A DNA stretch of 64,000 nt, taken from the NCBI GenBank assembly GCA_951406725.2, contig OX597831.1, forward strand, positions 37,510,001 through 37,574,000. Direction: 5' to 3'. The translations under genes and the position numbers were made by a program. The notes under the pieces were generated by a model. The model saw only the letters and a list, made by a program, of their open reading frames with translations, was not told where the DNA came from and searched no databases. This DNA comes from Octopus vulgaris. Its lineage: Eukaryota. Positions 11,915 through 59,040 of this stretch are shown piece by piece. Position 1 is the stretch's first letter, and each line of letters opens with the position of its first letter.

Positions 11915-12092
11915 GCAGAGTGGGCCAGACGATTATATCGACCCCAGAGCACGACATTTACATAACTAATCGACACCGAAAAAATTAAAAACTGAGTCGA
12001 TTTCGGAAGAATTAGAACTCAGAACGTAAAGGCCGGATGAAATGCCGCTAGATATTTTGTCAGTCCTGCTAAAGAGTCTGCTAGCTCGCACC
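11915..12092 (-). mobile_element. SINE family B, diverged copy
   Basis: gattatatcgaccccag...gaactcagaacgtaaag...gctagctcgc matches 40460-40625. Confidence 0.75.
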
Positions 12093-17977: not shown

Positions 17978-18038
<61 letters not shown>

Positions 18039-18040
<2 letters not shown>

Positions 18041-18131
18041 ATTTCTCTCACCCTTTCTTCTGTTGGCCTACTCGTTTAGCCAGCGGGGTGGCCTCATGCG
18101 AAGTGCATTGTGACCAGCGATGTGAACAGGG

Positions 18132-18135
<4 letters not shown>
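18039..18135 (+). repeat. Inverted duplicate of the 3' end of the adjacent SINE
   Basis: Reverse complement of ~18228-18326 at high identity. Confidence 0.9.
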
Positions 18136-18179
<44 letters not shown>

Positions 18180-18227
18180 ATACATCACCGTGTTCACATG
18201 ACTGGTATATATATATATATGTATATA

Positions 18228-18490
18228 TATCACCGTGTTCACATCGCTGGTCACAATGCGCTTCGCATGAGGCCACCCCGCTGGCTAAGCGAGCAGGCCA
18301 ACAGAAGAAAGGGTGAGAGAAATTTGTGGCGAGAGAATACAGCACGGATCACCACCAACCCCTGCCGGACCCTGGTGGAACTTTAGGTATTTTCGCTCAA
18401 TAAACACTCACAACTCCCGGTCTGGGAATCAAAATCGCGATCCTACGACTGCAAGTTCGCTTCCCTAACCACTGGGTCATTGCGCCTCCA
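18228..18490 (-). mobile_element. tRNA-derived SINE family D
   Basis: Minus-strand head tggaggcgcaatgacccagtggttagggaagcg...tgattcccagaccggg; related copy at 31730-31930. Confidence 0.85.
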
Positions 18491-34479: not shown

Positions 34480-34850
34480 CGGCATTTGGGCCCTCTTAAC
34501 CCTCTGAGTTCAAATTCCTCCGAGGGTGAATTTGCTTTTCATCTTCCCGGATCGATAAAATATATACCAGTTGAATTCTGGGGTTGTCGCAGTCGACTTA
34601 CTCCATTCCACGAAATTTCTGGCCTTCTACCAAAATTTGAAACCAATATTTCTTATGATAGAAACGGTAAAACGCTAGGTGAAAATAGTGAGCGGCATTT
34701 CTTCCTACTCTAGGTTTTGGGTTCAAATGCCGCCGCGGTCAATTTTGTTTTCCATCTTTACGGGTTGGTAAAATAAAGATCAGTTGAGCACTGGGGTCGA
34801 TGCAATCGACTAACTCGTTATTGCTGGCCTTGCTCCAAAATTTGCAATCA
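34480..34850 (+). mobile_element. Two tandem diverged SINE family B copies
   Basis: gagttcaaattcc...ttttcatcttcccggatcgataaaa...ccagttg appears twice (~34505 and ~34718). Confidence 0.75.
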
Positions 34851-36331: not shown

Positions 36332-36671
36332 TATACTGAATTTATATTGAGTGCCCAATTGCATCAAAGTATTAATACTATTAAAGTATTAATATATTTA
36401 ATACGAGCGATTATATACATATATATTTTTTAATAATTACGGAGATGTACTTGCATAGCGAGTGACTTGATCTGAGATCGTGTGCTAGAACGAAAACAAT
36501 TGCAGCGTGGAAGGTGTTTATAAGCCATTTAAGAAACACACGAAACCGTTAGATTCGCTTCAACATTTAAATTCAATTTGTCAAAATATTTTGATCGCTT
36601 TGAGACCGCGACCTGTTCACTGACAAAACTTCGTACTGCATCTGAGCAGTACTCAATATAAATTCAGTATA
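36332..36671 (-). mobile_element. Family H2 repeat with degenerate G3-C8 hammerhead (36577-36627), bounded by a perfect 21-bp inverted repeat
   Basis: TATACTGAATTTATATTGAGT (36332-36352) pairs with ACTCAATATAAATTCAGTATA (36651-36671); body matches 45855-45985 and 58415-58597. Confidence 0.8.
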
Positions 36672-40036: not shown

Positions 40037-40626
40037 ATTCTTTTCTACACTTGGTACAACGCCCGAAATTTTTTAGGGGAAAGGGCCAGTCGATTAGATC
40101 GACGGCCCAATCACGCAACTGGTTCTTAATTTATCGACGCGGAAAAGATGAAAGGCAAAGTCGACCTCGGCGGAATTTGAACTCAGAACGTAACGGCAGA
40201 CGAAATACTCATTTCTTTACTACCCACAAGGGGCTAAACACAGACAGGACAAACAAGGACAGACAAACGGATTAAGTCGATTATATCGACCCCAGTGCGT
40301 AACTGGTACTTAATTTATCGACGCGGAAAAGATGAAAGGCAAAGTCGACCTCGGCGGAATTTGAACTCAGAACGTAAAGGCAGACGAAATACCTATTTCT
40401 TTATTACCCACAAGGGGCTAAACACAGAGGGGACAAACAAGGACAGACATAGGTATTAAGTCGATTACATCGACCCCAGTGCGTAACTGGTACTTGATTT
40501 ATCGACCCCGAAAGGATGAAAGGCAAAGTCGACCTCGGTGGAATTTGAACTCACAACGTAACGCAGACGAAATACTGCTAAGCATTTCGCCCGGCGTGCT
40601 AACGTTTCTACCAGCTCGCCGCCTTA
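40037..40626 (-). mobile_element. Head-to-tail trimer of SINE family B (~185-bp period)
   Basis: ttatcgac...gatgaaaggcaaagtcgacctcgg.ggaatttgaactca occurs at ~40131, ~40315 and ~40499; the head ggcggcgagctggtagaaacgttagcacg is present only once. Confidence 0.88.
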
Positions 40627-45845: not shown

Positions 45846-45854
45846 CACAACAAC

Positions 45855-45990
45855 AATTGCAGCGTGGAAGGTGTTTATAAGTCATTTAAAAACACAGAAA
45901 AAGCGTTAGATTTACTTCAACATTTAAATTTAATTTGTCAAAATACTTTCATCGCTTTGAGACCACGACCTGTTTACTGACAAAATACCG
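45855..45990 (-). mobile_element. Family H2 repeat fragment with degenerate G3-C8 hammerhead (45934-45984)
   Basis: Minus TTTGTCA-GTAAACA-G-GTCGT...GCGAT-GAAA-GTAT-TT-TGACAAA. Confidence 0.75.
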
Positions 45991-46329
45991 TGATATATAT
46001 ATTATATGTATATGTATGTATGTATGTATGTATGTATTTACATACATATATATGTATATATAATAGCAAATGAGGATTCTTGATAGAATCATGTACTTAA
46101 ACGGTAGAGTTTCGTAAACCTATAGTCACTAACCACACCACAAAATGTTTGTTGGTTTTTCTTCCTTTTCACGGTCAGTTGCGGCTGGCTTCAGGCATGT
46201 TTCCACTGTGCTCTTGGGATATTCTATTGTTTTAAAACTATGTTTCATCTAATGATTACGGTTTTCTGAAATGATAAAATATATTAAATTTTCTATTAAA
46301 AATGGTAAGAAACATAAAACTTGCTTGGA

Positions 46330-49664: not shown

Positions 49665-49803
49665 GTCGACGTCGCCTTTCATCATTTCGGGGTCGATAAA
49701 TAAAGTACCAGTTACGCACTGGGGTCGATATAATCGACTCAATCCATTTGTCTGTCCCTGTTTGTCCTCTCTATGTTTATCCCCTCGTGGGCAATAAAGA
49801 AAT
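49665..49803 (+). mobile_element. SINE family B, 3' part
   Basis: gcctttcatcatttcggggtcgataaataaagtaccagttacgcactggggtcgat. Confidence 0.85.
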
Positions 49804-50747
49804 AATATATATATATATATCAATAATTAAAATATTGCAATGTGAAGTAGCTGTTATACACAATAATTTCAAGTATAAGAAAATGGCTTTTAGATAGAGA
49901 ACAAATATTGAAATATTACCATTCAGTTGAATAGGAAAATACTGATTCAGTTTGATTTGCCAGGTGTTACAAGACATTACACGCTACTTCCTAACGCACA
50001 CACCTCGTTTTAATGCCACGTACGTCTAACAAATATGCCGCAGTGAATTTCATATGGGAAATGCATTATTATAAATGTATCCGTGAGATAACTACTGTTA
50101 AAGATTGCTACGGAACTAATACAAGGGTAAATAGTATTTTTCTAAAGCTTGTTTCGTAATTGCTGTTATCAGTTCGATACAACAATAATGGCTTCTAACC
50201 TCTTCACGAAGTCAATATGTGTATGTATATAATCGCTTAATCTTAACTACCAGTTCTTGACAGCTACTTTATCTAATTAAGCCTTTATTTAATTAAGTGG
50301 AAGTTAATGTTGTATAACGGCGGGATTTAAATTCACAAGGTCAAGAATCGTAACCAAATAATGCTTTAATATTGTGTTAATCGACCAATGTTAATGCTTC
50401 TAATACCCAAAATGCGTCGCGTATCATAATTCCATGACACTTCACTTGTATCAGGTCGCGTTTAATGACACGTATGCACGCTATGTTTTCCCTAGGTCCT
50501 CTACAGATCCCTCTACTACTATTAAATAACAGAAAACGTTTCTGTTGAATATATTGCATTCGTCATTTGGTCGTGCAGATCTTATTGAAAAAGATAAAGG
50601 GTGCTATACGCCATTCTGCAAAGAATTGTATGCGCCAGTAATGTTACATCCACATACACTCACACAGACATAAGTACACCCAAACACATACAGACACATA
50701 CACACCGACACGCACGCACACACACGCACATACAGATATATGTGTGT

Positions 50748-54469: not shown

Positions 54470-54672
54470 AACTTTGGTACAAGGCCAGCAATTTCAGGAG
54501 TTGGGTAAGGGGATTATATCGAGACCAGTGTTCAAATGGTACCTGTTCTATCGAATTCGAAAGAATGAAAGCAAAATCGACCTCGACAACCATTGAGCTC
54601 AGAACGTAAAGACAGAAGAAATACCAGTGAGAATTTTGTACGACGCTGTAATAGTTTTGCCAGCTCGCCGCA
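54470..54672 (-). mobile_element. SINE family B, diverged copy
   Basis: gattatatcgagaccagtg...gagctcagaacgtaaagacagaagaaatac...ccagctcgccg. Confidence 0.75.
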
Positions 54673-54679
54673 TTAAAGA

Positions 54680-58414: not shown

Positions 58415-58737
58415 GTTACAGAGATGTACTTGCATAGCAAGTGACTTGATCTGAGATCGTGTGCTGGAACGAAAACAGTTGCAGCGTTGAAGGTGTTTAC
58501 AAGCCATTTAAGAAACACACAAAAACCGTTAGATTCACTTCAACATTTAAATTTAATTTGTCAAAATATTTTCGTCGCTTTGAGACCGCGACCTGTTAGC
58601 ACGATATTTTTGTCAGTGAACAGGTCGCGGTCTCAAAGCGACGAAAATATTTTAGCAAATTAAATTTAAATGTTGAAGTGAATGTAACGGTTTTTGTGTG
58701 TTTCTTAAATGGCTTACAAACACCTTCCACGCTGCAA
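58415..58737. mobile_element. Inverted pair of family H2 repeats (arms 58479-58597 and 58619-58737)
   Basis: ~119-bp arms are near-perfect reverse complements with a 21-bp spacer. Confidence 0.9.
58609..58659 (+). ncRNA. Hammerhead motif with covaried G3-C8 core
   Basis: TTTGTCA-GTGAACA-G-GTCGC-GGTCTCAAA-GCGAC-GAAA-ATAT-TT-TAGCAAA; the other copies end TGACAAA, giving a 7-bp helix I. Confidence 0.7.
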
Positions 58738-58819
58738 TATATATATACACACATATATATATATGTATGTATGTATGTATGTGTGTATATGTGTATGCAT
58801 GTATGTGTGTGTGTGTGTG

Positions 58820-59040
58820 CGTGTCTGTGCTTGTGATTGTCCTCCACCACTGCTTGACAACGAATGTTGGTTTGTTTACATACCTGTCACCTAGTGGTTT
58901 GACAAAGGAAACAGATAGAATAAGTACAATGCTTACAAAAATAAAACTGGAGTTGATTCATTAAACTACAATTCTTCAAGTCATTGCCCCAGCATGGCCA
59001 CAGACCAATGGCTGGAAAAAGCAGAAGAATAAAAGAATAC
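58820..59040 (+). mobile_element. SINE family A, 3' half
   Basis: gcttgacaacgaatg...gatagaataagtac...gccccagcatggccacag. Confidence 0.8.

What the first reader, a model, noticed from the sequence alone, without database searches (positions are those of the whole stretch)
58609..58659. Repeat family H2 carries a hammerhead with a swapped G3-C8 core
Seen: four copies (36577-36627 -, 45934-45984 -, 58557-58597 - truncated, 58609-58659 +) give the consensus TTTGTCA-GUGAACA-G-GTCGC-N9-GCGAC-GAAA-AUAU-UU-TGACAAA. This is a complete type I topology with a 7-bp helix I, 5-bp helix II and palindromic helix III (AAUAUU). Known: C3 and G8 form a tertiary pair in active hammerheads, so GUGAACA is the compensatory version of CUGAAGA, and scans for CUGANGA would miss it. 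Inference: a multicopy non-autonomous retroelement with an atypical self-cleaving RNA (UUU site, extra purine after A9), possibly undescribed in this lineage. No single copy here matches the consensus perfectly.
Basis: partly seen in the sequence, partly recalled or inferred. Interest (0 to 1): 0.85.

Follow-up and report, generated by a model that had tools for sequence, protein, structure and literature searches.

The report
Penelope hammerhead with swapped catalytic pair
This repeat, present in thousands of copies, is the front end of a Penelope-like jumping gene and carries a hammerhead-ribozyme motif whose core C-G pair is flipped to G-C relative to its sister families, likely a natural version of a known laboratory rescue mutant that is predicted, not yet shown, to cut RNA.

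Summary
The motif is real, but H2 is not a stand-alone short element. It is the pseudo-LTR plus first 30 codons of a Penelope-like retrotransposon (PLE) encoding reverse transcriptase and GIY-YIG nuclease. At least 6,459 copies carry G3-C8. Most are ~148- or ~205-nt fragments with PLE signatures: inverted 5' partners, an optional 57-nt tail, (TA)n flanks. Homologous sister PLE termini in the same genome carry C3-G8 with compensatory helix changes; eight relatives from other organisms carry C3-G8 or U3-A8. G3-C8 is therefore a derived, compensated swap. Excess G3xG8 and U3-G8 copies in older backgrounds may be intermediates. The extra purine, UUU site and palindromic helix III are ordinary PLE features; only G3-C8 was not found in print. 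Against function: no cleavage data; 1 of 96 copies starts at the cut site; inserted copies decay evenly; an apparently active sister carries A9C; all four window copies are damaged. Verdict: new variant of a known kind.

The parts
58609..58659 (+). Hammerhead motif copy: G3 = 58616, C8 = 58621, extra G = 58623, predicted cut 58652|58653; helix I damaged in this copy
58598..58738 (+). Short copy of the PLE terminus ending at the first 3' end (about unit position 148, no tail), followed by (TA)n
58709..58738 (+). Start codon and first 10 codons of the PLE ORF, truncated
   Evidence: same sequence continues in frame into the ORF in L361 and L362
58416..58597 (-). Inverted head-to-head partner: 5'-truncated inside the core, runs to the second 3' end (with the 57-nt tail) into a TA-rich flank
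36438..36643 (-). Complete ~205-nt short copy (5' cluster point to tail end); its hammerhead at 36577-36627 lacks G12
45852..45992 (-). Short copy without tail between microsatellites; its hammerhead at 45934-45984 has G5 replaced by A

Best explanation
H2 is the pseudo-LTR and ORF start of a Penelope-like retrotransposon, and its hammerhead is the element's inherited ribozyme motif with the core 3-8 pair flipped from C-G to G-C, likely kept by selection in source elements as a weak, dimer- or protein-assisted self-cleaving RNA. Shown: unit, HHR and ORF are contiguous; the terminus is homologous to C3-G8 sisters; copy ends are bimodal; templates were mostly uncut. Inferred mechanism: transcription likely starts at the A about 116 nt upstream of the ATG. 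The RT/endonuclease likely nicks (TA)n DNA and starts reverse transcription at two internal sites in the first 30 codons, as shown in vitro for the anole PLE, then copies back to the capped 5' end. That would give the thousands of ~148/~205-nt fragments and their inverted partners. The ribozyme would cut about 55 nt upstream of the ATG in only some transcripts, for example to release unit-length RNA from read-through or tandem transcripts, and is not needed for insertion. The swap likely went C3-G8 > U3-G8 or G3xG8 > G3-C8.
For: Upstream-extended copies (792 exact) lead over ~1.0-1.1 kb to an ORF with YVDD and GIY-YIG. L269-L274 and L279 carry a descriptor-perfect G3-C8 motif, about 1 kb after the stop in L269-L274. 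L362 reads 3' region > perfect motif > ATG > ORF. A sister PLE found by protein homology (57% identity, 1,312-aa frame) has the homologous motif with C3-G8 and two 3' ends at about the same codons. 1,882 canonical-core relatives with the same helix II base, control 14, align with H2 through the ORF start. Pair counts: 5 of 12 pairs change on both sides, including 3-8; 90% of cells paired against 25-56% for slid registers. Outgroups: 6 C3-G8 and 2 U3-A8; the tree puts H2 with the two sister rows at 100/100. Ends: 44 of 96 start at positions 1-3; 30 end at 146-151 and 64 at 197-205; 52 have an inverted partner. A non-templated-looking G precedes the start in 22 of 44. Engineered C3G/G8C partly rescues a PLE hammerhead (PMC11167929, passages).
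Against: No cleavage or expression was shown; the runs found were contigs only. Only 1 of 96 copies starts at the cut site, and it is an internal deletion. Inserted copies show no extra conservation of the core: 17/336 non-CpG mismatches against 48/1228 downstream in the older subfamily. About 160 copies carry G8, nearly all as a G3xG8 mismatch (40 of the first 100 of 405), so a core predicted to be inactive was probably copied. All 5 full-length copies read of the apparently active sister carry C at conserved A9. The strand-swapped active dimer (-27.2 kcal/mol) is less stable than the best alternative dimer (-31.3). The 28 C3-G8 rows were picked by that core, and only 2 rows are G3-C8: one evolutionary event. 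No fully intact H2 ORF was seen.
Confidence: 0.7

Rival explanations
1. Same PLE terminus, but the ribozyme is a catalytically dead relic. G3 arose by drift, a mismatch lineage kept transposing, and C8 was a neutral second hit or was kept for a non-catalytic role (RT-binding fold, promoter or translation element).
For: G3xG8 copies are about 10-fold over the strand-equivalent transversion at position 3 (about 160 against about 15). The apparently active sister has A9C, and outgroup L311 has C9. Templates were uncut. Ribozyme mutants do not affect insertion in vitro (PMC11167929, passages).
Against: Of the three possible changes at position 8, the Watson-Crick one took over (6,459 against about 160). 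All other catalytic positions and helices I-III are kept across families with about 57% protein identity. Older sister copies keep A9 (selected by that pattern).
Confidence: 0.22
2. The short copies are a separate non-autonomous family (SINE- or retrozyme-like) with its own short master copies, mobilised in trans by the PLE protein.
For: Short copies outnumber those holding the 5' ORF region by about 280:1 (6,459 against 23 places). They have a fixed 5' end. Animal retrozymes are proposed to be pLTR derivatives (bioRxiv 10.64898/2026.07.22.740005, abstract and first part).
Against: The subfamily variants of short copies are the ones found in ORF-linked copies. Both 3' ends fall inside the ORF, at about the same codons as in the autonomous sister. 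No head-to-tail arrays typical of retrozymes: only a few tandem pairs (L022, L161) among the loci read. Internal RT initiation alone explains the fragments.
Confidence: 0.07
3. The hammerhead likeness is chance in an AT-rich repeat.
For: Weak single-sequence folding z-scores; no Rfam hammerhead match.
Against: Homologous position and canonical core in sister and outgroup PLEs; 9 descriptor hits in 50 related loci against 0.33 in shuffles; compensatory changes.
Confidence: 0.01

Closest known systems
Minimal / palindromic-helix-III hammerheads in PLE pseudo-LTRs (Cervera and de la Pena 2014, PMC4209133; read: text parts 1-2 of 4, supplement parts 1-2 of 3)
   Same: Type I topology in a pLTR, extra nucleotide between 9 and 10.1, G10.1-C11.1, palindromic helix III (6 nt as in D. 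virilis Penelope), frequent U17 (an oyster PLE has the same UUU site), mostly solo or inverted-pair copies.
   Different: Of the 56 representatives in their Fig. S3, 53 are C3-G8, 2 U3-A8, 1 U3-G8 and none G3-C8; their descriptors fixed the core. No octopus entry.
Anolis Poseidon PLE 'PAc' (Frangieh et al. 2024, PMC11167929; passages)
   Same: HHR at the pLTR-ORF junction; two internal RT start sites define the optional tail; uncut RNA is the template; C3G/G8C double mutant partly active.
   Different: There the swap is engineered and the ORF starts inside the HHR. Here the swap is natural and fixed, the ATG lies ~55 nt past the cut site, and the tail is ~57 nt rather than 30-40.
C-terminal EN+ PLEs with a CX2-5CxxC linker: Neptune / Nematis (Craig et al. 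2021, PMC8557442; passages)
   Same: RT followed by CX3CxxC linker and GIY-YIG; inverted 5' copies, tail, (TA)n insertion bias.
   Different: Short linker suggests Nematis (inference); not tested against named reference elements. It is distant from a second, 781-aa PLE type in the same genome.
Natural core variants of hammerheads (Perreault et al. 2011, PMC3088659; section 8)
   Same: Natural covariation at the 3-8 pair.
   Different: The section text names only U3-A8 (figure not visible).
Non-LTR retrozymes (bioRxiv 10.64898/2026.07.22.740005, first part; PMC7229834, search listing only)
   Same: Short non-coding animal repeats with a type I HHR, related to pLTRs.
   Different: Retrozymes are head-to-tail arrays; H2 copies are dispersed monomers or head-to-head inverted pairs of an ORF-bearing PLE.

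Membership tests
Penelope-like element (C-terminal EN+) | ORF with RT followed by GIY-YIG endonuclease linked to the repeat | tested here: met
   GIY-YIG above Pfam cut-off; YxDD invariant in 35 aligned relatives. RVT_1 hit only 5 of 35 members and not the H2 protein itself; the profile hits two solved RTs at E 3e-4 and 8e-3. Contiguity.
Penelope-like element (C-terminal EN+) | Pseudo-LTR on both sides of the ORF / partial tandems | tested here: met
   Unit follows the ORF end (L269-L274) and precedes the ORF start (L361, L362); sister shows full tandem structure. No single H2 element was read end to end in one stretch.
Penelope-like element (C-terminal EN+) | Inverted 5' copies, optional tail, (TA)n target bias | tested here: met
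   52 of 96 with inverted partner; 3' ends 30 at 146-151, 64 at 197-205, 2 elsewhere; flanks mostly TA-rich by inspection.
Penelope-like element (C-terminal EN+) | Spliceosomal intron in the 5' region (some PLEs) | tested here: inconclusive
   A branch-point/acceptor-like sequence ends at the 5' cluster point, but short copies keep the AG and show no constant first exon.
Nematis clade | RT phylogeny with named Nematis elements; reduced Zn-finger linker | tested here: inconclusive
   Short CX3CxxC linker seen; no named reference sequences were on hand for the tree.
Hammerhead ribozyme (PLE type I, dimeric) | Three helices around U4 G5 A6 N7, A9, G12 A13 A14, A15.1-U16.1, H17 | tested here: met
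   All present in intact copies; helix III only as a palindrome.
Hammerhead ribozyme (PLE type I, dimeric) | Watson-Crick pair between positions 3 and 8 (canonically C-G) | tested here: met
   Pair kept as G-C. The canonical letters C3, G8 are not present. C-G or U-A in homologues.
Hammerhead ribozyme (PLE type I, dimeric) | Covariation in helices across homologues | tested here: met
   5 of 12 pairs with changes on both sides (5/500 shuffles); slid registers 1 each. Rows are related, and the three never-varying helix II pairs were fixed by the search pattern.
Hammerhead ribozyme (PLE type I, dimeric) | Self-cleavage after position 17 | not testable with these tools
   Needs an assay. Indirect genomic test negative: 1 of 96 copies starts there.
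Rfam Hammerhead_1 (RF00163) | Score above gathering threshold | tested here: not met
   No hit on an intact H2 copy nor on a C3-G8 sister; 6 unrelated hits among 73 candidates scored genome-wide.
Non-LTR retrozyme | Head-to-tail tandem units each with a HHR, no ORF-bearing parent sequence | tested here: not met
   Dispersed or inverted copies; ORF-bearing parent found.

The most novel reading that the evidence does not exclude
This is the first natural G3-C8 hammerhead and it is active. The genome preserves the compensatory path as dated fossils (C3-G8 sisters, U3-G8 and G3xG8 in older H2 copies, G3-C8 sweeping the young ones), showing selection for ribozyme catalysis in a PLE even though insertion uses uncut RNA. 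Descriptor scans would then have missed a class of GUGANCA hammerheads.
Probability: 0.4. Interest if true: 0.72.

Novelty: new variant of a known kind. Interest (0 to 1): 0.55.

Why it matters
The 3-8 pair of the hammerhead core was shown by engineered double mutants; the natural covariation in the papers I could read was U3-A8 (plus one U3-G8 entry). A natural G3-C8 fixed in thousands of copies, beside C3-G8 sisters and candidate intermediates in one genome, is phylogenetic support for that pair and a reason to widen search descriptors. It also gives a ready allelic series (C3-G8, U3-G8, G3xG8, G3-C8, A9C) for the open question of whether PLE hammerheads must cleave. The copy ends are independent genomic support for internal reverse-transcription start sites, so far shown in vitro for one lizard element.

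Tried and rejected
Rfam scans: no hammerhead among the 150 listed of 244 window matches, mostly microsatellite noise, and none. A pair of copies 4.3 kb apart (L061) was a local duplication without an ORF. A GIY-YIG family search found other PLEs (781-aa type, some with U3-A8 motifs) with no sequence link to H2. No C3-G8 version of H2 itself among the first 100 of 209 non-G3 copies. 5' ends at the cut site: not enriched. Preferential conservation within inserted copies: none. Splicing as cause of the 5' cluster: no constant first exon; not excluded. Reads: all four runs were contigs, so they say nothing on expression or RNA ends. An insect metatranscriptome (X19) gave 8 low-depth pieces, probably carry-over and not used. 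A terminal-inverted-repeat DNA transposon was rejected: inverted partners vary in length and the parent encodes RT. No PLE ORF remnant in the window by tblastn. Earlier findings of the scan: none. Literature searches for a natural G3-C8 gave only engineered variants (PMC11167929, PMC8495972, PMC3884650; passages). Not seen: Lunse et al. 2017 on PLE hammerhead variants, Przybilski and Hammann 2007, the Craig 2021 supplement, Repbase and Dfam. Any of these could already hold this variant or family.

Full report
Observation. The four copies lie where stated. Aligned with an intact copy, each is damaged: helix I broken at 58609+, G12 lost at 36627-, G5 lost at 45984-, positions 3-5 missing at 58597-. 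A relaxed hammerhead descriptor finds none intact in the window. The genome is 2.8 Gb in 227 contigs; a homologue of the element's protein is labelled Octopus vulgaris, so an octopus is likely (inference). The family is large: 6,499 exact matches of a 3' 23-mer and 6,459 of the G3-C8 19-mer, with reversed controls 0. It is also held by runs under several other organism codes (B-E; B and E were laid).

Anatomy of the copies. I took 96 copies anchored on the 3' 23-mer, from 90 loci on contig C1 and unbiased for the ribozyme. 44 start at unit positions 1-3. The rest are 5'-truncated at scattered places, with a cluster of 11 at positions 15-16 that may be an alignment effect of leader variants. 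One starts at the predicted cut site, and it is an internal deletion. 3' ends are bimodal: 30 at 146-151, 64 at 197-205, 2 elsewhere (ends before 146 could not be seen). 52 have a head-to-head inverted partner, counting both members of a pair, and flanks are mostly TA-rich. Inverted 5' copies, an optional tail and (TA)n bias are described PLE features (PMC8557442, passages).

The parent element. Some copies extend upstream (792 exact matches). Following them leads through about 1.0-1.1 kb of simple-repeat-rich sequence to the end of an ORF with YVDD, a CX3CxxC linker and a GIY-YIG domain. L269 has a 1,025-residue open frame, and L269-L274 carry a descriptor-perfect G3-C8 motif about 1 kb after the stop. 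Of 5 stretches read upstream of the 5' ORF region, L362 shows 3' region, intact motif, ATG and in-frame ORF; L361 and L363 show part of the unit joined to the ORF; L364 and L365 are truncated before it. So unit positions 115-205 are codons 1-30. Only 23 places hold that 5' ORF region, and I saw no fully intact ORF. The H2 protein itself did not hit Pfam RVT_1; 5 of 35 aligned relatives did, and the profile hits two solved reverse transcriptases weakly.

The swap is real. A protein search found a sister family at 56-58% identity with many near-identical 1,310-1,312-residue frames. Its terminus, found without reference to the core, has the homologous motif with C3-G8, a homologous ORF start and two 3' ends at about the same codons. 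A canonical-core pattern with the same helix II base gives 1,882 matches, control 14. These align with H2 from helix I into the ORF start. In the closest (L285), helix I, N7, the extra G and the 5' strand of helix II match H2, and the core differs only at positions 3 and 8. On 30 rows (2 H2, 28 sisters; 2 of the 30 fetched sisters were dropped for deletions), 5 of 12 pairs change on both sides and 90% of cells pair, against 25-56% for slid registers. These rows are related and were selected by their core, so this counts as one swap event. In 50 related loci from other organisms, a descriptor with free positions 3 and 8 gave 9 hits against 0.33 in shuffles. Eight lie just after the ORF end: 6 C3-G8 and 2 U3-A8; all 8 have the extra base (G in 7) and a palindromic helix III; U17 occurs in 5. 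The ninth lies inside an ORF and is unpaired. A 19-row protein tree groups H2 with the two sister rows at 100/100. G3-C8 is therefore derived, while the extra purine, palindrome and U17 are ordinary for the clade, as described in PMC4209133.

Possible intermediates. Non-G3 copies number 209 and non-C8 copies 405. By my hand count of the first 100 listed of each, position 8 is G in 40, U in 44, A in 16; position 3 is A in 62, U in 31, C in 7. That extrapolates to about 160 G8 copies against about 15 for the strand-equivalent change at position 3. U3 goes with G8 in 5 of 31 against 1 of 62 for A3 (Fisher p 0.015). All 7 G8 copies measured sit in the older background (6 of 44 for G3-C8) and are more diverged (mean 6.9% against 2.9%, p 0.026, driven partly by one copy at 18%). 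However, three other G8 copies sit in the younger background (L076, L186, one in L278). The path C3-G8 > U3-G8 / G3xG8 > G3-C8 is thus an inference; back-mutation or recombination is not excluded.

Mechanism. For the anole PLE, RT starts at two internal sites in the 5' ORF that define the tail, uncut RNA is the template, the hammerhead needs the protein to cleave, and C3G/G8C partly rescues it (PMC11167929, passages). The same scheme explains H2: starts at codons about 11 and 30, copying back to the RNA 5' end. The base before the 5' cluster point is G in 22 of 44 copies where the template has C or T (p about 1e-6 against an assumed 18% background). That fits a copied cap, though some of these G's could come from inverted partners. 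The same point also looks like a splice acceptor, and this stays unexplained. Cleavage would fall about 55 nt before the ATG. Releasing unit RNA from read-through transcripts is my preferred role (inference); help with cap-independent translation, shown for viral hammerheads (PMC13725137, passages), is a second option.

Results against function. Inserted copies decay evenly: core 5.1%, helix I 4.3%, downstream 3.9% in the older subfamily; 1.8%, 2.0%, 1.3% in the younger. This is expected for dead copies but gives no support. Subfamily differences sit mainly in loop II, the leader and downstream. The one common helix I variant makes a U-G pair (15-25% of depth in three runs). The active dimer is not the most stable fold. 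A mismatch core was probably mobile, and all 5 copies read of the apparently active sister carry A9C. PLE hammerheads cleave poorly in vitro (PMC4209133). Expression was not shown.

Novelty. Seven literature searches found G3-C8 only as an engineered mutant. Natural covariation is given as U3-A8 (PMC3088659 section 8; PMC4209133). The most relevant survey (Lunse et al. 2017) and the repeat libraries could not be read, so prior mention is possible. Verdict: a member of the PLE pseudo-LTR hammerheads, with a core variant that appears undescribed; activity untested; interest 0.55.

Noticed in passing
L264-L268 (e.g. G000:C17:6329300-6339200): An apparently very active sister PLE with many near-identical 1,310-1,312-residue ORFs whose hammerhead has C in place of conserved A9 in all 5 copies read; many other copies of the clade keep A9.
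   Followed up: partly
L113, L115, L117, L118, L121, L126, L132 (3' of GIY-YIG hits): A second PLE type (781-aa ORF) in which some subfamilies end in a U3-A8 hammerhead motif with a 6-nt palindrome. One genome thus holds C-G, U-A, U-G and G-C at the 3-8 pair.
   Followed up: partly
L040, L072, L016, L272; L102-L107: Other short repeats with minimal C3-G8 hammerheads, and six Rfam Hammerhead_1 hits, three of them one family with a long helix II insert.
   Followed up: no
upstream of the unit in L210-L239: A branch-point, pyrimidine tract and AG ending at the 5' cluster point, which also fits an initiator consensus (recalled). Intron or start site unresolved.
   Followed up: partly
window 58416-58900 and L096 (G000:C1:76511941-76514959): The same inverted-pair junction and downstream flank occur on another contig, suggesting this insertion was duplicated with its surroundings.
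   Followed up: no
window 18036-18328: A ~290-bp near-perfect inverted repeat around a (TA)n centre, possibly an inverted pair of another short element.
   Followed up: no
window 40088-40575, 49665-49804, 11922-12089, 34495-34832, 54506-54676: Another multicopy short repeat (184-bp tandem unit at 40 kb), unrelated to H2 by blastn.
   Followed up: no
run X19 on L030:1497-1705: Eight low-depth contigs of an insect metatranscriptome match parts of H2; probably carry-over.
   Followed up: partly
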